Part shown: piece after piece, positions 34,955-56,042 of the stretch
Layout: every line of letters begins with the position of its first letter
Position numbering within the stretch: position 1 is the first letter of the stretch
Source: a virus
Taxonomy: Duplodnaviria; Caudoviricetes
Reading direction: 5' to 3' (one strand)
Virus record (IMG/VR): IMGVR_UViG_3300021961_000122
Coordinates: 1-56,042 of that record
DNA: 56,042 bases
Notes under the pieces: generated by a model
What the model saw: the letters and a program-made list of their open reading frames with translations, nothing else
Told to the model about the DNA's origin: nothing
Databases searched by the model: none
Position numbers and translations under genes: made by a program

Positions 34955-35683
34955 TTAAGTGTAACTTTCCACTTGTCCCAATTGTAATGTTTGTGCAGTA
35001 CCTTGCTCAGCACCCGAACGTACAACAGTACCTTCGTCACTAAAGAAGTTAGCAGCAAATTTTACATCATTAACAACTTCAGCTTCAGTATATCCGGGAC
35101 CACCAGTGTAGTCAAGTGCAAACTTGTTGGTTAGCTTGCTAATGCGGATATCACTGGAATCGCCAGGACTCATTGTGATGTTCATATAACCCGAAGACAA
35201 AGCACCGTCAGCAGCATCTTGTAAAACGCACTGGCCAACTTCAAAAGCTGTACCAGTAGTACCACCAGCAGAAGCAGCAGTTACATAGAAAACTGTGCCA
35301 GCAGCAGCACCAGCAGGTGCTCCCATTGATTGCCAGTCTGTATTACCTACAGTAGCAATCATCATAGAAGTACCAACCACTGCATTTGCAGGATCAATAG
35401 CAGCGTTAGTTGCTACCAAGTACTTACGGCTGCCTTTCTGACGAATAATATGTCCGTCAGCATCACCAGAAAACGAGTTTGCAATGTTTACGCGAACTTT
35501 AACTTGGGGGAATGTAGTGCTGGTAGCAGGTGAATCTATACCGCCGACTACGCCCAAGAATTCGGTTTCACTGGCGACATAGCCTGTGGGTAACACTGGA
35601 TTGGTCAACGAACCCCAGTTGGGATAGCCGACGTCAGTGTCAACGGAATTGTTGTATTTTTGTATTTTTAATGGTCTGCCCAT
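34955..35683 (-). CDS. Probable abundant virion protein (possibly capsid decoration)
   Basis: Strong AAGGAGG SD, its own late promoter and terminator, Gly/Ala/Thr-rich. Confidence 0.6.
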   Translation of the reverse strand: MGRPLKIQKYNNSVDTDVGYPNWGSLTNPVLPTGYVASETEFLGVVGGIDSPATSTTFPQVKVRVNIANSFSGDADGHIIRQKGSRKYLVATNAAIDPANAVVGTSMMIATVGNTDWQSMGAPAGAAAGTVFYVTAASAGGTTGTAFEVGQCVLQDAADGALSSGYMNITMSPGDSSDIRISKLTNKFALDYTGGPGYTEAEVVNDVKFAANFFSDEGTVVRSGAEQGTAQTLQLGQVESYT

Positions 35684-35710
35684 TTTGTTTCCTCCTTAAA
35701 GAAGTCCAAT

Positions 35711-35775
35711 GCGAGTTCTAGTCGCTACGCGGCTGGTGTGCCGCATAAAACGCAGTATTGCGTTATGTTTATTTA
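35711..35775 (-). promoter_or_regulatory. Late promoter followed by a three-hairpin structured 5' leader
   Basis: TAAATA at 35770-35775; stems AACGCA/TGCGTT, ATGCGGC/GCCGCGT and GCGA/TCGC. Confidence 0.55.
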
Positions 35776-49801: not shown

Positions 49802-50938
49802 ATGTATTCAGTTTATCAACATTGGGACCCTTTAAAAGTATGCGTAGTAGGACGCAGTTATCCTCCTGAGTTTTATTCTTGGATTGCCGTACCACACGTA
49901 AGAGAGTTATTTGAACGTATTGCTATTGAAACAGAAGAAGACTATCAAAATATTATTAAAAAACTAGAAGAATTTGGTGTAGAAGTATTAAGACCAGACT
50001 TGCCTGAAGAAACATTTTTAGATGGTAGATTTGTACAACCACCAATGACTCCTAGAGATTATACAATTATGATTGGAGAGAATTTTTTTAGCAACTATTT
50101 GATTCGTGACTTTGGACATTTTTACTGGAATTTTAAGCAAGAAGATTGGCCATGGTGTAATTCAGAAGAGGACTTATACATTTTACCTAAAGATATTCAA
50201 GTTAGTTGTCAAGAAGCATATAAACTGTATGATTTATATACTAAGTCTGTTAATTGTTACGATAAAATATTGCAGCATATTAAGGACCAAGGTAACAAAT
50301 TATTTACAGAAAATAGTTTTAGTCAGACTAACGGTGCAATGGTAACAAGAATAGGTAAAGATTTGTATTTTGGTACAAACAGAAACATTCAAGATATAAC
50401 TGAATATAAAAAATTAATCAACAACAAGTTTACTACCACTCGAAATCACATTGTTAATACCAATGGTCACAGTGACGGAACATACTGCCCAGTTTGTCCT
50501 GGATTGATTATAAGTTTAAATGACGTACCAACATACCAAGATACTTTCCCAGGTTGGGAAGTGGTATACTTACCTGGACAAAGTTGGGATGCTGTAAAAC
50601 CATTTTTGAATCTTAAAATGAAAAATGCTGGTAAGTGGTGGATACCAGGATTTGAACACGATCAATCAGTAATCGACTTAGTCGAAACATGGTTGGGTCA
50701 TTGGACTGGCTACGTTGAAGAAACTGTATTTGATGTTAACATGCTAATCATTGACCCTAAAAATGTTATAGTATTCAATTACAACAAACAGGTATTTGAT
50801 GCATTAGAACGTTATGGCATTACCCCACACATTGTACCATTTCGACATAGATATTTTTGGGATGGTGGTATACATTGCATAACAAGCGATCTAGATAGAG
50901 AAGGTACAATGCAAGATTATTTTCCAGAAAGAGGTTAA
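49802..50938 (+). CDS. Amidinotransferase (glycine/inosamine-phosphate amidinotransferase family)
   Basis: WDPLK..VVG, PRD, GHSDG, VNML, GGIHCIT.D..R; the catalytic Asp/His/Cys-type motifs are present. Confidence 0.85.
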   Translation: MYSVYQHWDPLKVCVVGRSYPPEFYSWIAVPHVRELFERIAIETEEDYQNIIKKLEEFGVEVLRPDLPEETFLDGRFVQPPMTPRDYTIMIGENFFSNYLIRDFGHFYWNFKQEDWPWCNSEEDLYILPKDIQVSCQEAYKLYDLYTKSVNCYDKILQHIKDQGNKLFTENSFSQTNGAMVTRIGKDLYFGTNRNIQDITEYKKLINNKFTTTRNHIVNTNGHSDGTYCPVCPGLIISLNDVPTYQDTFPGWEVVYLPGQSWDAVKPFLNLKMKNAGKWWIPGFEHDQSVIDLVETWLGHWTGYVEETVFDVNMLIIDPKNVIVFNYNKQVFDALERYGITPHIVPFRHRYFWDGGIHCITSDLDREGTMQDYFPERG

Positions 50939-50939
50939 C

Positions 50940-51275
50940 ATGGCAGACTTATATACAATTTGGGCAAACAAAGAAGGCAATATTACTGACTTAGAATGGG
51001 TCAACGGAATGAAAAGTTTCTTTGATCATTTAATCTCCGAAGGCAAAATGGAAAGTTATCGCATCACTCGTTGTAAAATGGGATTCCGATCAATTGCTGA
51101 CATGCCGGAATTTATGATTTTGATGGAGTTCAAAAACATGGGTCAAATGGATGAAGCATTCCGCCGTGTTGCTCCACTTGAAGGCGAACTTGAAGTTAAG
51201 CACAAATCATTCAATCAGTTTGTTGCCGGAGACATTCAGCACGCACTTTTTAGGGACTGGCCCGACCAGTTATGA
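50940..51275 (+). CDS. Dimeric alpha/beta-barrel-like protein (DUF6614-like)
   Basis: YRITR.K.GF......EF.I..EF....Q.D.AF, ALFRDWPD. Confidence 0.45.
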   Translation: MADLYTIWANKEGNITDLEWVNGMKSFFDHLISEGKMESYRITRCKMGFRSIADMPEFMILMEFKNMGQMDEAFRRVAPLEGELEVKHKSFNQFVAGDIQHALFRDWPDQL

Positions 51276-51820
51276 ACGATATTATACTATTGGCGCTGGC
51301 TGAAGAAGCGCCTGGTTTGTCTCAGTATGGTAATGTATTTTTTACGGGTGTAGGCAAAGTAAATGCCGCAATGACTACAGCAGAGTTAATCGAACGCCAC
51401 AAACCTAAACGAGTTATTAATTTTGGTACAGCAGGTGGTATTACTGTGGGCACCGGCTTACACTTAGTATCACGCTATGTTCAACGTGATATGGTCTGTT
51501 GCGAATTGGGCAGCAAACCCGGTCAAACACCCTTTGAAGATTTAGGTGTAGTGTTAGACTTAGGCGGAGATGGATTAACTTGTAGTACAGGTGACAACTT
51601 TGTTACTAATCCAGAGTTAGAAATACCCGCTGACATAGTAGATATGGAAGCATACGCAATCGCAAAGACATGCTATCGAAAAGGCGTTGAATTTGTTTGT
51701 TATAAATTTGTAAGCGATAGTGCTAATGAACATTCATATCGTGATTGGCGTGAAATGGTATCAGCGGGAGAATCACTGTACATCGAAAAACTAAAAGAGT
51801 ATGATATAATCATACTTTAA
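51272..51820 (+). CDS. mtnN: MTA/SAH nucleosidase (PNP_UDP_1 family)
   Basis: GVGKVNAA, INFGTAGG, TGD.FV, VDME..AIA, K.VSD.A. Confidence 0.85.
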   Translation: MNDIILLALAEEAPGLSQYGNVFFTGVGKVNAAMTTAELIERHKPKRVINFGTAGGITVGTGLHLVSRYVQRDMVCCELGSKPGQTPFEDLGVVLDLGGDGLTCSTGDNFVTNPELEIPADIVDMEAYAIAKTCYRKGVEFVCYKFVSDSANEHSYRDWREMVSAGESLYIEKLKEYDIIIL

Positions 51821-52213
51821 GATCTCTGCGAGATCTATTGATTTCGCTGCGCTCATCAATTTTTGTTTTCTTAGTATTATCTAGATTACGCAGTCATAAT
51901 TCACCGTAAGCACGGTGAATTGGTTCTACAGCATTATCTGAGTGTAGCAGCCTTTATTATCAAGAGATTGTAGATTCTACGCAGAGGCGGTTGACCGGTA
52001 CCCCTTACTCTAGCTTCACATATCAACGGAACCCTAGTGACCCCATAATAAATCGAAGTCCTATAAGCATGGGTTGTATCTTTTTCACAGAGCCCAAATC
52101 GTTTGTTGCCTTAAGTTAGCATTGTTCTTTGACACCCAAGCATCCGGACCGGGTATTCCACCGTTCCTCAAAGGGGTTGAGCCATGTCACTCAACACAGA
52201 GTCGTAATTGATT
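51821..52213 (-). ncRNA. Candidate large structured ncRNA directly downstream of the GIY-YIG gene
   Basis: ~390 nt with no ORF in an otherwise gene-dense genome; several hairpins and crossing long-range complementarities. Strand inferred from the upstream gene. Confidence 0.55.
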
Positions 52214-52642
52214 TTAAAGTTTGTTTTTAATGTGATTACCGTGTACTTTTACACTGATTATCCCATTGTAATAATCGTCTGATTCTAATACTTTTCTATT
52301 GAACTGTTCACGAGCTTCAATGTATGAACACGCCGCTTTTGAACTGCAATAGTATAGTATTTCTCTGGAGAAATTTTCGGTGCCTAGTTTTAAGATGTCA
52401 GCTGCCAGTTCAAGACTTGAACCATAATACTCACGCCAATCGCTGTCGATTCGAGTGCGTATTCGCTTTTTCTTTTTGATGCCGTTCTTTTGTTTTACTA
52501 CTTTTACTGTGGTTTTTGAGAACTTTGCTAATTTTTTGCCTATGTACTTGCGTCCGGAGAGATTATTAGTGATTAAGTATACAAATCCAACACATTCTTC
52601 GGGTAGTGTCTCAACTGGAGTGTCTTGATAGTACCATGTCAT
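52214..52642 (-). CDS. Compact GIY-YIG nuclease-domain protein
   Basis: GFVYLITN..SGRKYIGKK, W..YYGSS, E...QF, YYN. Has a basic insert and no NUMOD tail. Confidence 0.75.
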   Translation of the reverse strand: MTWYYQDTPVETLPEECVGFVYLITNNLSGRKYIGKKLAKFSKTTVKVVKQKNGIKKKKRIRTRIDSDWREYYGSSLELAADILKLGTENFSREILYYCSSKAACSYIEAREQFNRKVLESDDYYNGIISVKVHGNHIKNKL

Positions 52643-52686
52643 GTGTTGTATTCAATTGTGTGCCTTTTGCTGTGTAGTTATATCAA

Positions 52687-53697
52687 TTACCAGGCGGTGG
52701 CATAATTTTTGTCAACCACTAAACTTTTACATTTAGTTTGACATTCTTGCCACCGAAATGTTTGAAATTCTGTGTTCCAAAACTGATCTGCTAACACGCT
52801 GGTTAAAGATTTATTGTTTAAATTGAAATTTTCTGCTATTTGTTGCCAGTCTGAGTTGTGATTGTATCTGTTTGCTACCCAGCAGCAAGGAAATAGCCTG
52901 CCACGAGCATCAATATACAACCCTTTGTTACCTATTTCGCATAAGGGTGTAATACCATCACGAGATTTAATTGTTTTGTATAATTCAATATTAGTAGGAG
53001 AAATTTTGTCTTCTCCCCCGCGCTTAGTTAAAATGTCTATTTCTCTCTCAAAACGATAGGTACTACTGATAAATCGAATGCTAGGTTCCAGTGGGTCATT
53101 TGCCCCATAGCTAGGATAAACACTGCCAAATTTGGTACTTTTTGTTAGTTGAAAAACGTCTACACCTAATTGACGAGCTTGATTTCTCATATTGTCAATT
53201 TGATTTTCATTAAACTTAAATGCAATTGCTGCCCAAGTAATTTTACAATCTGAATGCTCCCTTACTGTTTTTATTCCTAGCATAATGCTGTCATAGTCGC
53301 TATTAACACGGTATAAATTGTTTGACTCATTATTATATCCGTCAATGCTAAAGTGTATGCTATCATTGGCGTCTAACGATTCGGCTAGTTCTTTCCACCA
53401 AGCCTCCTTTTTATGACTTCCATTAGTAACAATTACAATTTCAACAGGTTTAACACTTTTGATATATTGTATAACTGGAATTAAATCATGGGCATAAATT
53501 GGATCGCCGTCATCACCACAGAAGGTAATTTTTTCCAAATTGGTTAGTATAAATTCTGGTGTAAAATTTCGTTTAAAAAAATCTAAATCTAATTCAGTAT
53601 TAACTAATCCATTAGGTACTTCTTGCCGCGCACATCTAGGGCAAGCAAGAGTACACTTACTTGAAATTTCAATATGAAAATGCCAAGTTGCTAACAT
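52687..53697 (-). CDS. Radical SAM protein with Twitch/SPASM-like C-terminal domain
   Basis: CTLACPRC, CG..GDP, TNG, FSIDG, C...LYIDA.G...PCCW...C...C. Confidence 0.9.
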   Translation of the reverse strand: MLATWHFHIEISSKCTLACPRCARQEVPNGLVNTELDLDFFKRNFTPEFILTNLEKITFCGDDGDPIYAHDLIPVIQYIKSVKPVEIVIVTNGSHKKEAWWKELAESLDANDSIHFSIDGYNNESNNLYRVNSDYDSIMLGIKTVREHSDCKITWAAIAFKFNENQIDNMRNQARQLGVDVFQLTKSTKFGSVYPSYGANDPLEPSIRFISSTYRFEREIDILTKRGGEDKISPTNIELYKTIKSRDGITPLCEIGNKGLYIDARGRLFPCCWVANRYNHNSDWQQIAENFNLNNKSLTSVLADQFWNTEFQTFRWQECQTKCKSLVVDKNYATAW

Positions 53698-54554
53698 AAT
53701 TGACTATTTCTCTGCCATTGATTAGTAAAGCTAGTTTTGTTTTTATTAGTTGAACAAGTAGCTTTGCAAACTGGATTGGGTGTATCTGTTTTCCATGACT
53801 GCTTTATTTCAACGAAATTGTGCTCAAAGTTTGATTGTCTAGATCCTAACCAGCAGCAAGGGCTGACATTCCCTCGAGCATCAATGTACATACTTTTTTC
53901 TTCTAAAATGTAGCACTTAATTTTACCAGATTTAACTGTAGCCGACTGCCACCCAATCGGAAATTCTAGTCGATTGGTAAATCCACGCTTGCTAACCTTA
54001 GCACGAAACCATGTAAATCCCATATCGCGTGCTAGTTGTTCACATGCATCAACTTGATGTTGATTATGTTTGTATACCAACATATCCCAGTGTGCTGACC
54101 CGCCTGCTGATATGTATGCTTCGACATTGGCCATTAGTTTACGCCAATCAGAGTTGACTCGATAAACAGGATTAGTATCTTCTAAACCATCAATGCTGAA
54201 TACTACATAGTCTCGTGGCTGATTAAACATCTTGCCTAATTCGTTCCACCAAAATGTATTTTGTAGTGCTCCATTGGTGTTCATTCCTAATGTTATGTTA
54301 GGATTAACTTGGCGGAAATATCTATAGATGTCTAGCGTATATTTGCCCGCAGCTGGATCACCATAATTGCCGCACATGAACATCTTGTCAAGACCAGCAA
54401 TTGTTTTGTCAGAAAAATGCTTCTGTATTTGACTTAGTCTTAAATGATGTTTTAATTCTTTTTTAAATTCTGGATCAGTTTCTCGAGCACACAACGGACA
54501 AGCTAGTTGACAAACATCAGTTGGCTCTACGTGTAATACTTTTATTTTACGCAT
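53691..54554 (-). CDS. Radical SAM protein with Twitch/SPASM-like C-terminal domain (tandem paralog)
   Basis: Start MRKIKVLHVE at 54554; CQLACPLC, CGNYGDP, TNG, FSIDG, PCCW. Confidence 0.9.
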   Translation of the reverse strand: MRKIKVLHVEPTDVCQLACPLCARETDPEFKKELKHHLRLSQIQKHFSDKTIAGLDKMFMCGNYGDPAAGKYTLDIYRYFRQVNPNITLGMNTNGALQNTFWWNELGKMFNQPRDYVVFSIDGLEDTNPVYRVNSDWRKLMANVEAYISAGGSAHWDMLVYKHNQHQVDACEQLARDMGFTWFRAKVSKRGFTNRLEFPIGWQSATVKSGKIKCYILEEKSMYIDARGNVSPCCWLGSRQSNFEHNFVEIKQSWKTDTPNPVCKATCSTNKNKTSFTNQWQRNSQLC

Positions 54555-56042
54555 GATCAATGTCAGTGTTGTAACTGGTAAAGCCACCTTCTTTGACCAC
54601 ACGAAGAATATTTTCAACACGCCCAGCTAACTCATCACGATGGCTAACCAACCAAATGGATTTGTGCCGTTCACGACTCATGTGCTTGAGTAGAGCCAAA
54701 CTGTTTTCAACGCCTTGTGTGTCTAGCCCCGAATCAATCATTTCATCAACAAACAGGACATTAATTGGTTGATATAAACTTTCATAAACATCACGGAATG
54801 CCCACGACATTGACAGTATCAATCGATTCCGCTCACCACGACTTAAATTGTCAAAATCAAGTTCACGGCCTAGTTCCTCAATGCTAACGGTTAAATCATT
54901 CTGAAACACCACGGTATGGGGCAGTCCAATGCGATCAAGATAGTAAGTTAATCGTGCGTTTAGATAGCTGAGATTTTGCTCAATAATCTTTTTACGAATA
55001 AACGAATCTTTGCTGGTTAGCAGTTTTAACAAAAACTCTTGATGCTCTTGAAGCCGCGTTAACCCATTTAGTGTATCGTAGTTGACTTCTTGTAGTGCCT
55101 GCGACTGCATTTCGTCAATTTGTTCACCATAAGGATCAGCTTCGCCCGATTTTGATTTGATCTGCTGCTCTAGACCAGCAAGCGTGGTTCTATGCGAAAT
55201 AGCATCTTCTTCACGATCATAATACATCTTTGGTGGTTTGCCAATATCCCCAATGGCATCGCTGGCTTCTTGCAGTTTAGTCAGCGTATCGCTGTGCAAA
55301 GCCACTTGATCTGTTGCTTCATCTAACTCTTTTTGTTTAGCAGCTAGTACAGCAGTTTGTTTAGCATCATGAAATGGTTGTCCACAAGTGTGGCAAGTGT
55401 GCGATTCAAGCGTGGCAATTTCCTTGGACAACTTGTCAGCTGATTTTTGCTCGCGTTGTAGATCTAGCTTGGCTCGACTGATTGCAGTGGCTAATTCATT
55501 AAATTCTTTTCTTTGCAAATCCCAGGACGCATGATCTTTGTGTGCTTGAATTTCGGCAGCAATGTCAATTTTTTGTAGCTCGTCTAATCCATTTTGGAGT
55601 TGATCCAGCTCTTCTTTGTGTTTGGTTACCCATAAGGTTTGTCGACGCTTTAAACTTTCAATTTGCTCTTCAATACGTTTGTTGGCCTCTTGTACAGCAC
55701 GAATGCGAAATTCTTCTTGTGTAATGCCATCTTTGGTTTCACGATTAAGTTCTTTGATACGTTCGGCACGCTCACTGAGTAGTGTAATACCCAGTAGTTG
55801 CTCAATTATAGTGCGTTGATCATTGGCCTTTAAACTTAAAAACGGTTCAGTGTAAGTGTTTAGTGCCAGAATGTGTTTGAACATGTCATGACTAAGTCCT
55901 AACACATCCTCAATTGCAGTTTGTGTTTCTCGGCTGTCACCTTGAGCATTGTCAGCAACTTCTTGCTCGTGGTTGTCAACATAAAACTTCAGTATGTTTG
56001 GCTTACGTCCACGTTCAATTCTGTAAGCGGTACTGCCTACAG
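54547..56042 (-). CDS. gp46: SbcC/Rad50-like recombination endonuclease subunit, 5'-truncated by the window edge
   Basis: Frame stays open to the edge (…YRIERGRKPN…); Zn-hook CHTC, signature LSRGE, Walker B LFVDEMID, SH switch. Confidence 0.92.
   Translation of the reverse strand, partial: VGSTAYRIERGRKPNILKFYVDNHEQEVADNAQGDSRETQTAIEDVLGLSHDMFKHILALNTYTEPFLSLKANDQRTIIEQLLGITLLSERAERIKELNRETKDGITQEEFRIRAVQEANKRIEEQIESLKRRQTLWVTKHKEELDQLQNGLDELQKIDIAAEIQAHKDHASWDLQRKEFNELATAISRAKLDLQREQKSADKLSKEIATLESHTCHTCGQPFHDAKQTAVLAAKQKELDEATDQVALHSDTLTKLQEASDAIGDIGKPPKMYYDREEDAISHRTTLAGLEQQIKSKSGEADPYGEQIDEMQSQALQEVNYDTLNGLTRLQEHQEFLLKLLTSKDSFIRKKIIEQNLSYLNARLTYYLDRIGLPHTVVFQNDLTVSIEELGRELDFDNLSRGERNRLILSMSWAFRDVYESLYQPINVLFVDEMIDSGLDTQGVENSLALLKHMSRERHKSIWLVSHRDELAGRVENILRVVKEGGFTSYNTDIDHA

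What the first reader, a model, noticed from the sequence alone, without database searches (positions are those of the whole stretch)
51821..52642. Minimal GIY-YIG nuclease followed by a ~390-nt pseudoknotted non-coding element: candidate nuclease-ncRNA system
Seen in sequence: this is the largest ORF-free gap in the window, and it begins right after the GIY-YIG stop. Hairpins include GTTGAG/CTCAAC (52176-52195), a perfect 10-bp AATTCACCGT/ACGGTGAATT (about 51898-51921), CTACA/TGTAG, ATTGAT/ATCAAT and GATCTC/GAGATC. Long-range pairings read on the minus strand are ACCCCTT (52171-52177) with AAGGGGT (52000-52006), and GAGG-aa-CGGT (52160-52169) with ACCG-CCTC (51984-51991). These fall in crossing A-B-A'-B' order, i.e. 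a pseudoknot. The loop TTTATTAT (52045-52052) of a GACTTC/GGGGTC hairpin can pair with ATAATAAA (51953-51960), a second possible pseudoknot. The 142-aa protein has only the catalytic GIY-YIG core plus a Lys/Arg-rich insert (KTTVKVVKQKNGIKKKKRIRTR). Established: phage GIY-YIG homing endonucleases (I-TevI, Seg) carry additional C-terminal DNA-binding domains. Inference: the RNA may supply targeting or scaffolding in a ribonucleoprotein, as with IscB/omegaRNA, or may be a ribozyme. A replication origin or terminator cluster at this convergent boundary is the alternative.
Basis: partly seen in the sequence, partly recalled or inferred. Interest (0 to 1): 0.85.

Follow-up and report, generated by a model that had tools for sequence, protein, structure and literature searches.

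The report
Large structured phage RNA after nuclease gene
The gene-free stretch after a small nuclease gene in this uncultured T4-like phage encodes a large, strongly conserved folded RNA that no library describes in full, but nothing shows that it guides the nuclease.

Summary
Window 51821-52213 is the largest ORF-free stretch and lies 3' of a 142-aa GIY-YIG gene.

It is a real structured RNA on the gene's strand.
- It was found in 195 held loci.
- It is better conserved than the gene, median 82% against 76% DNA identity.
- 60 of 90 modelled pairs show compensatory changes; 0 of 500 shuffles reach this.
Its two long-range pairings are not.

Two new points emerged.
- In 109 of 171 distinct relatives the 5' domain is the orphan Rfam motif Polynucleobacter-1. 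The window's own copy does not match it. The shared ~230-nt 3' module is in no Rfam family.
- Two direct-repeat heptamers flank a hairpin and change in lock-step. They are identical in 123 of 127 sequences, across 15 shared variants. This is unexplained.

The nuclease-guide reading is not supported.
- The locus order is fixed: gp46, nuclease, RNA, baseplate.
- A PD-(D/E)XK nuclease replaces GIY-YIG in 7 loci.
- Cultured-phage homologues of the nuclease lack the RNA.
- No guide-like segment exists.

Function is unknown. My best guess is a trans-acting RNA.

The parts
52214..52642 (-). 142-aa GIY-YIG nuclease gene: catalytic domain plus a basic beta-hairpin, with no separate DNA-binding domain
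   Evidence: Pfam PF19835 E 1.2e-31, profile positions 1-123 of 123. PHROG 447 E 9e-36. AlphaFold2 mean pLDDT 92.4. Best fold match is the I-TevI catalytic domain, 1ln0_B/1mk0: prob 0.99, TM 0.66 by target length, but E only 0.036.
51820..52213 (-). The whole conserved structured RNA element, about 394 nt. The true 5' and 3' ends are not determined.
   Evidence: Conserved in 195 held loci. 90-pair model: 93.2% of cells paired, 60 pairs with compensatory change, 0 of 500 shuffles as high. G-U plus U-G 194 against A-C plus C-A 53 in helices, which fixes the strand.
52070..52203 (-). 5' domain of the window's subtype (group A): helices P2a, P1, P2, P3, P4 and P5. In most relatives a Polynucleobacter-1 motif stands here instead.
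   Evidence: Helices 1-8 carry compensatory changes. No RF01718 match in the window. This subtype makes up 47 of 171 distinct elements.
52032..52067 (-). P6 hairpin. Its loop L1 (52045-52052, TTTATTAT on the RNA strand) is the 5' half of the pseudoknot.
   Evidence: Helix 9: 9 of 13 pairs with changes on both sides, 98.1% paired.
51983..52005 (-). P7 core hairpin AGGGGTACCGGTCAACCGCCTCT, the most conserved block of the family
   Evidence: Nearly invariant across the alignments. The closing pair covaries: G-C 26, A-U 7. Column pair 242/260: A-T 64, G-T 43, T-A 19. Served as the search pattern.
51970..51980 (-). P8 small hairpin GTAG-AAT-CTAC. Some relatives carry large insertions in its loop.
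   Evidence: Helix 13: 4 of 4 pairs with changes on both sides. Insertions seen in L009 and L003.
51953..51960 (-). S2, the 3' half of the pseudoknot (ATAATAAA), which pairs with loop L1
   Evidence: Helix 10: 5 of 7 pairs with changes on both sides, 89.6% paired. Many compensatory variants, in Polynucleobacter-1-type relatives too.
51933..51942 (-). R1: CTC plus the heptamer AGATAAT, first copy of the lock-step direct repeat
   Evidence: Heptamers of R1 and R2 identical in 123 of 127 sequences. Columns 302/356 identical in 126 of 126, with about 33 inferred changes.
51898..51921 (-). P9: perfect 10-bp hairpin between the two repeats
   Evidence: Helix 15. Stem sequences are replaced compensatorily in other subtypes.
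51876..51885 (-). R2: TCT plus the heptamer AGATAAT, second copy of the lock-step direct repeat
   Evidence: R1 and R2 account for the only two matches to ATTATCTRR in the 56-kb window.
51837..51860 (-). P10 hairpin with the conserved inner loop GAGCG..AGCGAA and an inner 2-bp stem
   Evidence: Helices 16 and 17: 6 of 6 and 2 of 2 pairs with changes on both sides.
51820..51836 (.). P11 terminal hairpin. On the + strand it overlaps the last base of the convergent gene's stop codon and scores as terminator-like.
   Evidence: Helix 18: 6 of 7 pairs with changes on both sides. Terminator-like site on the + strand.

Best explanation
The gap encodes a large structured non-coding RNA, about 390 nt here, on the minus strand. 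It belongs to a family carried by an abundant clade of uncultured T4-like (Kyanoviridae-related) phages of fresh and estuarine water.

The RNA is modular.
- A shared 3' module of about 230 nt holds hairpin P6 with a loop-to-distal pseudoknot, an almost invariant core hairpin, two repeat units around a 10-bp hairpin, and two terminal hairpins.
- This module is joined to one of two alternative 5' domains. One is the window's type. The other, in most relatives, is the orphan Rfam motif Polynucleobacter-1.

The RNA sits at a fixed place, at the end of the gp46 recombination-nuclease operon. It is probably made from the same transcript as the small nuclease gene before it (inferred).

I read it as an RNA that works on its own, not as the nuclease's guide.

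The mechanism I think most likely is inferred, at roughly one chance in three. The folded body displays two identical single-stranded heptamers (RGAURAW). These bind two copies, or two sites, of one partner nucleic acid encoded elsewhere in the phage or in the host. When the partner changes, both heptamers have to change together.
For: Shown:
- Conservation exceeds that of the neighbouring gene: median 82.2% against 75.9% DNA identity in the same 24 loci, some of them duplicates.
- RNAalifold on 33 distinct full-length copies: 42 of 63 pairs have changes on both sides.
- My 90-pair model including the pseudoknot: 93.2% of cells paired (shuffles 81.4%, slid partners 36-44%), 60 pairs with compensatory change (shuffles 34, slid 16-29), 0 of 500 shuffles as high on all five measures.
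- G-U wobbles outnumber A-C 194 to 53, which fixes the strand and argues for RNA.
- No Rfam family and no tRNA match the window. Frames carry stops in all six readings.
- Contigs from RNA libraries of 4 runs in 4 studies cover parts of the element. Two of them cross the gene-RNA junction: 52190-52344 and 52108-52652.
- Independence from GIY-YIG: fixed synteny in 163 distinct loci, with GIY-YIG upstream in 141, PDDEXK_15 in 7, neither in 4, and 11 cut off. Six of 76 pattern-found loci have a further ORF of about 1 kb between gene and RNA. Cultured homologues lack room for the RNA.
- Lock-step heptamers: identical in 123 of 127 sequences, 15 shared variants. Three positions are identical in 125-126 of 126, with about 33, 21 and 8 inferred changes. 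The flanks stay different (CTC against TCT), which argues against gene conversion.
Against: - No transcript ends are known, and no raw-read evidence exists. Contigs from RNA libraries can stem from contaminating DNA.
- No partner for the heptamers was found. A complement to a locus's own variant is no more frequent than to other variants within -450 to +250 nt (8 of 123 against 63 of 738). The same holds in 1.2 Mb of flanks. The window holds no other match.
- The RNA always follows a small nuclease gene that lacks a DNA-binding domain, and two unrelated folds share that slot. This could still mean a functional tie.
- P10 and P11, with the A-rich tract before them, read on the + strand as hairpins followed by a T-run. 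They may therefore belong to the convergent gene's terminator rather than to the RNA.
- The count of changes on the tree may be inflated by recombination.
Confidence: 0.5

Rival explanations
1. Nuclease-RNA system. The RNA binds the small nuclease encoded just upstream and supplies targeting or scaffolding. The heptamers or another segment would act as guide.
For: - The RNA begins within about 12 nt of the nuclease stop in most loci.
- RNA-library contigs bridge gene and RNA.
- GIY-YIG (142 aa) shows only a nuclease domain in Pfam. For PDDEXK_15 (170 aa) the one Pfam match covers residues 5-138.
- The GIY-YIG carries a long basic beta-hairpin that could hold nucleic acid.
Against: - The same RNA goes with two unrelated nuclease folds, and 4 loci have neither.
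- An extra ORF separates gene and RNA in 6 of 76 loci.
- Homologues in 478 cultured-phage records include Melnitz and S-SRM01, which lack the RNA.
- No hypervariable guide of fixed length was seen in the alignments (by eye).
- Protein columns do not follow the heptamer variant: the largest mutual information is 0.14 of 0.99 bit and 0.35 of 0.97 bit, with a null maximum of about 0.2.
- No paper on an RNA-guided GIY-YIG was found.
Confidence: 0.1
2. Cis-acting 3' untranslated region or boundary element. The structures stabilise or process the gp46-nuclease operon mRNA and terminate convergent transcription. There is no trans function.
For: - The element lies at a convergent boundary in the window and in most loci.
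- A terminator-like site lies at 51820-51836 on the + strand.
- On the + strand P10 is followed by a T-rich run (read directly).
- Contigs join the gene to the RNA.
Against: - About 15 helices, a pseudoknot and long invariant unpaired stretches are far more than stabilisers or terminators need.
- The element keeps its form where the next gene runs the same way.
- The lock-step heptamers have no role in such a model.
Confidence: 0.15
3. A ribozyme, or a ligand- or protein-binding RNA, whose chemistry needs the conserved core. The two repeats would be matched donor and acceptor sites, or twin cleavage sites, around the hairpin.
For: - Invariant unpaired nucleotides around a pseudoknotted core.
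- Two identical sites flanking a hairpin.
- The size is in the range of large ribozymes (recalled).
Against: - No match to any ribozyme or intron model of Rfam in the window, at E up to 10 across 51600-52900.
- No evidence of cleavage or joining: no joints appear in the contigs laid.
Confidence: 0.1
4. A DNA-level element such as a replication origin, a recombination site or a slippage hotspot. The direct repeats around a palindrome would act as DNA.
For: - Direct repeats flanking an inverted repeat are a classic DNA slippage or recombination layout (recalled).
- The location is next to the recombination genes gp46/gp47.
Against: - The strand-specific excess of G-U over A-C (194 against 53) fits RNA on one strand, not duplex or cruciform DNA.
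- Covariation supports a loop-to-distal pseudoknot.
- There is only one copy in the record.
Confidence: 0.05

Closest known systems
Polynucleobacter-1 RNA motif (Rfam RF01718; Weinberg et al. 2010, PMC2864571, table passage seen)
   Same: In 6 of 14 relatives scanned, the 140 nt between the GIY-YIG stop and the shared 3' module score 69-119 bits against a gathering score of 37. A profile built from these six finds the domain in 109 of 171 distinct elements. The habitat matches: fresh water and estuary. It is likewise an orphan motif of unknown function.
   Different: The window's own element does not match RF01718; it carries another 5' domain. The Rfam motif covers only 141 nt. The 3' module of about 230 nt, the pseudoknot and the lock-step repeats are in no Rfam family. 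The 2010 table lists the motif as possibly cis-regulatory; here it lies 3' of a gene.
IscB/TnpB omega RNAs (OMEGA systems) and CRISPR guide RNAs
   Same: A structured RNA encoded directly 3' of a small nuclease gene, on the same strand.
   Different: There is no RuvC or HNH protein and no transposon ends. No variable guide was seen. The RNA is shared by two unrelated nucleases and is absent from most of the GIY-YIG family. The features of OMEGA systems are recalled.
Large orphan structured RNAs of phages (GOLLD, ROOL)
   Same: Large size, many helices, found in phages and metagenomes, unknown function (recalled).
   Different: No Rfam match to either. The size is about 390-450 nt. The position is a fixed one after gp46-nuclease rather than near tRNA genes (the tRNA association is recalled).
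T4 gene 60 translational bypass element
   Same: A T4-like phage. A matched triplet before and after a stable hairpin about 50 nt apart, with the first copy followed by a stop codon (UAA or UGA). The features of gene 60 are known to me from the abstracts listed and from recall.
   Different: The region lies in no reading frame, with stops in all frames. The second copy is also followed by a stop. The identity spans 7 nt. Possible mini-ORFs are not kept in frame (reading rows).
IS110 bridge RNA / seekRNA
   Same: One folded RNA with two separate single-stranded segments that must share an identical core, because the two DNA partners share it (recalled).
   Different: No IS110-type recombinase and no element ends. 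No complementary targets were found.
Free-standing GIY-YIG homing endonucleases of T4 (Seg proteins, I-TevI)
   Same: GIY-YIG catalytic domain by Pfam and by fold. T4-like phage context, next to a conserved RNA gene, as SegB sits among T4 tRNA genes (recalled).
   Different: No C-terminal DNA-binding domain. Not sporadic: present in 141 of the 152 loci that have upstream sequence. The family is widespread in Kyanoviridae.

Membership tests
Rfam RF01718 Polynucleobacter-1 RNA | Covariance-model score at or above the gathering score (37 bits) | tested here: not met
   The window has no match at gathering score over its whole length. It has none at E up to 10 over 51600-52900. Six of 14 relatives scanned do match, at 69-119 bits.
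The new RNA family defined here (shared 3' module) | Core hairpin GGTACMGG...ACCGCC, the L1-S2 pseudoknot, two RGAURAW repeats around a hairpin, and hairpins P10 and P11 | tested here: met
   The window aligns over the full profile. All helices are paired and covary across relatives.
RNA-guided nuclease systems (OMEGA or CRISPR type) | The RNA co-occurs strictly with one nuclease family | tested here: not met
   PDDEXK_15 replaces GIY-YIG in 7 loci and 4 have neither. Cultured homologues lack the RNA.
RNA-guided nuclease systems (OMEGA or CRISPR type) | A hypervariable guide segment of fixed length next to a conserved scaffold | tested here: not met
   The variable stretches differ in length, for example 7-17 nt after R1. 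The heptamers vary at only 3-4 positions. This was judged by eye in the alignments.
RNA-guided nuclease systems (OMEGA or CRISPR type) | Physical ribonucleoprotein and RNA-dependent cleavage | not testable with these tools
   This needs biochemistry.
GIY-YIG nuclease superfamily (protein) | Domain match, fold and conserved catalytic-type residues | tested here: met
   PF19835 at E 1.2e-31. Invariant Y22, Y33, R93, E109 and N126 in 19 sequences; assigning catalytic roles to them is recalled. Best fold match is the I-TevI catalytic domain (weak E of 0.036).
Free-standing homing endonuclease (Seg type) | A separate DNA-binding domain and a sporadic distribution among related genomes | tested here: not met
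   The Pfam domain covers residues 3-129 of 142. Listed homologues are 142-169 aa. The gene is present in 141 of 152 loci with upstream sequence.
Gene 60-type translational bypass | Matched take-off and landing codons inside one reading frame that continues after the gap | tested here: not met
   The matched triplets, the stop and the hairpin are present. There is no open frame before or after them.
Known ribozymes, introns, tmRNA, RNase P, tRNA | Match to the family model | tested here: not met
   cmscan of the window and of 14 relatives. ARAGORN finds 0 genes.

The most novel reading that the evidence does not exclude
The two lock-step heptamers are twin recognition segments of a bispecific RNA. 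This RNA would align two nucleic-acid partners that share an identical 7-nt core, as a bridge RNA does for its recombinase. It would serve the small nuclease encoded upstream, or the gp46/gp47 recombination machinery. That would be an RNA-programmed DNA (or RNA) transaction of a new kind in T4-like phages. A further reading that is not excluded is a matched donor/acceptor pair for a polymerase or ribosome jump over the hairpin.
Probability: 0.06. Interest if true: 0.95.

Novelty: new variant of a known kind. Interest (0 to 1): 0.62.

Why it matters
- It defines a large RNA class of about 390-450 nt, with a pseudoknot, in a very abundant group of uncultured aquatic phages. More than 8000 close protein relatives of the neighbouring gene were found, and 195 loci with the RNA were held here.
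- It shows that the orphan Rfam motif Polynucleobacter-1, catalogued in 2010 as a possible cis-regulator, is probably just one of two interchangeable 5' domains of this larger RNA.
- The parallel, identity-type covariation of two direct repeats is unusual for an RNA. It points to a partner still to be found and gives a concrete handle on function: search for what co-varies with the heptamers.
- It also corrects an attractive but unsupported reading, that of an RNA-guided GIY-YIG nuclease.

Tried and rejected
1. Decayed C-terminal domain, or a hidden gene. Stops occur in all six frames. The short 142-145-aa protein is the norm among the 120 listed relatives. Rejected.

2. Single-sequence stability. 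The z-scores are -0.95 and -1.51, which is uninformative.

3. Known RNA families. None match the window.

4. Helix between R1 (AGAU) and R2 (AUCU). No compensatory change appears (helix 14). The G-to-C changes in R1 are not compensated. Doubtful.

5. R1 pairing with UUGAG (52168-52172). Only one C-G variant exists, and the pairing is broken in L072. Not supported.

6. A partner for the heptamers in cis or in the flanks, or a variant-matched motif on either strand. None was found.

7. Mini-ORFs, read as RUG-ACY ... NNA-URA in each repeat unit. My reading of the rows shows the frame is not kept in unit 1, in-frame stops occur in unit 2, and the window lacks a start. Rejected.

8. Box C/D or kink-turn reading, and a CsrA-site reading of the repeats. 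The motifs are not conserved across the variants. The consensus motifs are recalled.

9. Covariation of the nuclease protein with the heptamer variant. None beyond background.

10. Cultured phages carrying the RNA. No blastn match for three different queries in 50,697 records.

11. Pattern CACTATCC..GGACGAAG in genome contigs. The pattern was too loose. Of the 120 stretches matched, at least 111 were stored as loci (L210 to L320 or beyond); among those, only L308 has a real Polynucleobacter-1-like hit. L308 is a 1.3-kb phage-like contig with a GIY-YIG gene and no detectable 3' module.

12. Bacterial genomes. The specific three-part pattern gave 8 hits. All are the same phage locus on contigs binned into MAGs, 6 of them labelled Bacteroidota. 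This is a weak host hint at most.

13. RNA-library contigs. Stretches of the element without cover, and the matching contig ends at 51952 in two studies, prove nothing: one is an adaptor-flanked short insert and the other is of read length.

Full report
**What is there**

The window is a 56-kb fragment of an uncultured virus record. Positions 51821-52213 form its largest stretch without an ORF of 60 aa or more: 393 nt, against 129 nt for the next.

The stretch begins directly after the stop codon of a 142-aa ORF on the minus strand (52214-52642). It ends at the stop codon of a convergent + strand gene, a 182-aa PNP_UDP_1-like protein.

The 142-aa protein matches Pfam SegE_GIY-YIG over the whole profile (E 1.2e-31) and PHROG 447. 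An AlphaFold2 model from 19 sequences is confident, with mean pLDDT 92.4. It places the Lys/Arg-rich stretch in a long beta-hairpin, residues 40-66. The best solved-structure match is the I-TevI catalytic domain: prob 0.99, TM 0.66 by target length, but E only 0.036. A sequence search of the PDB found nothing.

**Is the gap more than chance?**

On its own the sequence is unremarkable. Folding energy has z -0.95 on the minus strand and -1.51 on the plus strand. GC content equals that of the window. There is no tRNA. No Rfam family matches, either at gathering score or at E up to 10. All six frames are full of stops.

The evidence comes from relatives.
- The protein has more than 8000 close relatives. 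The 120 listed are all 142-169 aa.
- Of 80 viral loci fetched through the protein, an iterated nucleotide profile finds the downstream element in 73. It is always on the gene's strand.
- A pattern from the most conserved core, searched without reference to the protein, brought in further loci. Of the 79 examined, 76 hold the element.
- In all, 195 held loci carry it, as 171 distinct sequences.
- Against the window, the element is better conserved than the adjacent coding gene in the same 24 loci: median 82.2% against 75.9% DNA identity.

**Structure**

On 33 distinct full-length copies (alignment A1), RNAalifold predicts 63 pairs, 42 of them with changes on both sides.

I built an 18-helix, 90-pair model that includes one pseudoknot.

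| Measure | Observed | Shuffles | Slid partners |
|---|---|---|---|
| Cells paired | 93.2% | 81.4% | 36-44% |
| Pairs with compensatory change | 60 | 34 | 16-29 |
| Covariation score | 0.356 | 0.146 | 0.04-0.08 |

None of 500 shuffles reaches the observed value on any of the five measures.

In 126 distinct 3' modules aligned by sequence alone, helices hold 194 G-U or U-G cells against 53 A-C or C-A. This fixes the strand as that of the GIY-YIG gene and speaks for RNA rather than DNA.

So is its second pseudoknot, loop 52045-52052 with 51953-51960. There, 5 of 7 pairs show changes on both sides, and many compensatory variants are visible across both subtypes.

Its first pseudoknot is not supported. 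For ACCCCTT/AAGGGGT and GAGG-CGGT/ACCG-CCTC, 0 of 15 pairs show a compensatory change and the scores equal the shuffles. The same bases lie in local helices P2, P3 and P7, which do covary.

**A known piece inside the family**

I scanned 14 relatives against Rfam. In 6 of them the roughly 140 nt between the GIY-YIG stop and the shared 3' module are the Polynucleobacter-1 RNA motif (RF01718), at 69-119 bits against a gathering score of 37.

A profile built from these six finds that domain in 109 of 171 distinct elements, always 0-100 nt before the shared module. A further 47, the window among them, carry the other 5' domain. Nine have neither and 6 are cut off.

Only one paper in the library names the motif, the 2010 survey. 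I saw only its table row: RNA likely, possibly cis-regulatory, taxa Burkholderiales and fresh water/estuary. Its supplements were not available and may hold more.

Nothing in Rfam covers the shared 3' module. Three different blastn queries found the element in none of 50,697 phage records.

**Relation to the nuclease**

The locus is syntenic across 163 distinct copies: gp46 (Rad50-like), sometimes two radical-SAM/SPASM genes, a small nuclease, the RNA, then a convergent DUF6614 and/or T4-baseplate gene.

| Occupant of the nuclease slot | Loci |
|---|---|
| GIY-YIG | 141 |
| Unrelated PDDEXK_15 protein | 7 |
| Neither | 4 |
| Locus cut off upstream | 11 |

In 6 of 76 pattern-found loci, an extra ORF of about 1 kb lies between gene and RNA.

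Homologues of the GIY-YIG protein at under 60% identity occur in 478 cultured-phage records, mostly Kyanoviridae. In Melnitz the space after the gene is only about 150 nt, and in S-SRM01 about 88 nt.

I saw no fixed-length hypervariable segment in the alignments. Protein columns do not follow the RNA's variable heptamers. Literature searches found no RNA-guided GIY-YIG.

So adjacency is real, but shared ancestry of a gene order explains it. The guide or scaffold reading has no positive support. What remains in its favour is that both slot occupants are small nucleases without a recognisable DNA-binding domain.

**Expression**

Contigs from four RNA libraries of four studies cover parts of the element. 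Two contigs run across the gene-RNA junction, 52190-52344 and 52108-52652. This fits co-transcription. It is weak evidence, because such contigs give no strand, ends or level, and DNA can be present in RNA libraries.

**The unexplained feature**

Two single-stranded direct repeats flank the 10-bp hairpin P9. R1 is CTC plus a heptamer (51933-51942). R2 is TCT plus a heptamer (51876-51885).
- The heptamers, of form RGAURAW, are identical to each other in 123 of 127 sequences, across 15 shared variants.
- I built a tree from the rest of the module. Three positions are identical in 126 of 126, 125 of 126 and 126 of 126 sequences, with about 33, 21 and 8 inferred changes. Recombination may inflate these counts.
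- The flanks stay different (CTC against TCT, and +8 G against A), so gene conversion is unlikely.
- The longer unit, a helix followed by RUGAC, 5-7 nt, YYY and the heptamer, occurs twice.

This is identity-type covariation, not complementarity.
- I found no complementary partner in the element or within -450 to +250 nt.
- There is no variant-matched enrichment in 1.2 Mb of flanks.
- The window holds no other match.

The pattern also reads as a sense codon followed by UAA or UGA, in both copies, on either side of a hairpin. That recalls T4 gene 60 bypassing (abstracts listed). But there is no reading frame here, and the mini-ORFs are not conserved.

**Best reading**

This is a modular, stand-alone structured RNA of a T4-like phage clade, probably transcribed with the nuclease operon. 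Its body displays two identical heptamers to one partner that is encoded elsewhere.
- The first part, a real RNA family, is close to certain.
- Independence from the nuclease is likely.
- The bivalent-pairing mechanism is inference, at about one chance in three.

**Novelty and score**

The window's RNA is not a member of any described family. Its relatives show that a known orphan motif is one domain of the same larger RNA. I therefore rate it a new variant of a known kind, namely orphan large phage RNAs and the Polynucleobacter-1 motif.

Interest is 0.62. The RNA is large, abundant and well supported, and it carries a rare covariation pattern. The striking nuclease-guide idea is not supported, and the function remains open.

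Noticed in passing
window 35681-35765 (-): A full-length freshwater-2 RNA motif (RF02980, 71.2 bits against a gathering score of 49.9). It lies directly upstream of a Shine-Dalgarno-like AAGGAGG and an ATG, which fits a 5' leader.
   Followed up: partly
window 52687-54620 (-): Two adjacent radical-SAM/SPASM genes (336 and 309 aa) lie between gp46 and the GIY-YIG gene. They are present in only part of the related loci, sometimes in three or four copies.
   Followed up: partly
L137:2614-3126 (+), and 6 further loci: A 170-aa PDDEXK_15 nuclease (Pfam E 4.5e-24; PHROG 244, labelled RusA-like resolvase) occupies exactly the slot of the GIY-YIG gene before the RNA.
   Followed up: partly
L015:3436-4152, L016:3450-4457, L031:1512-2501, L050:3426-4571: ORFs of 238-381 aa, without a significant Pfam match, lie directly after the GIY-YIG gene. 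In L015, L016 and L031 the RNA follows them. The profile found no RNA in L050.
   Followed up: partly
L009:3429-3886 and L003:3429-3885: Insertions of about 40-55 nt in the loop of the small hairpin P8 of the RNA. In L013 and L068 a hairpin is inserted after P3.
   Followed up: no
L205 and L207 (two contigs of 148 and 183 kb in one MAG): Two different phage-like contigs, each with the full locus, are binned into one Haliscomenobacter MAG. Six of the 8 MAG hits carry Bacteroidota labels. This may hint at the host, or may be a binning artefact.
   Followed up: partly
L308 (1320 nt): A GIY-YIG gene followed by a Polynucleobacter-1-like domain. No 3' module is detectable in the 550 nt that follow.
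   Followed up: partly
window 49802-51820 (+): The convergent gene set holds a 378-aa protein with a weak arginine-deiminase-family match (E 0.0034, below cut-off), DUF6614 (111 aa) and a short 182-aa PNP_UDP_1-like phosphorylase.
   Followed up: no
phage records: In many GenBank phage records the homologues of this GIY-YIG protein are annotated 'NAD synthetase'. The same label sits on PHROG 447 and looks like a propagated misnomer.
   Followed up: no
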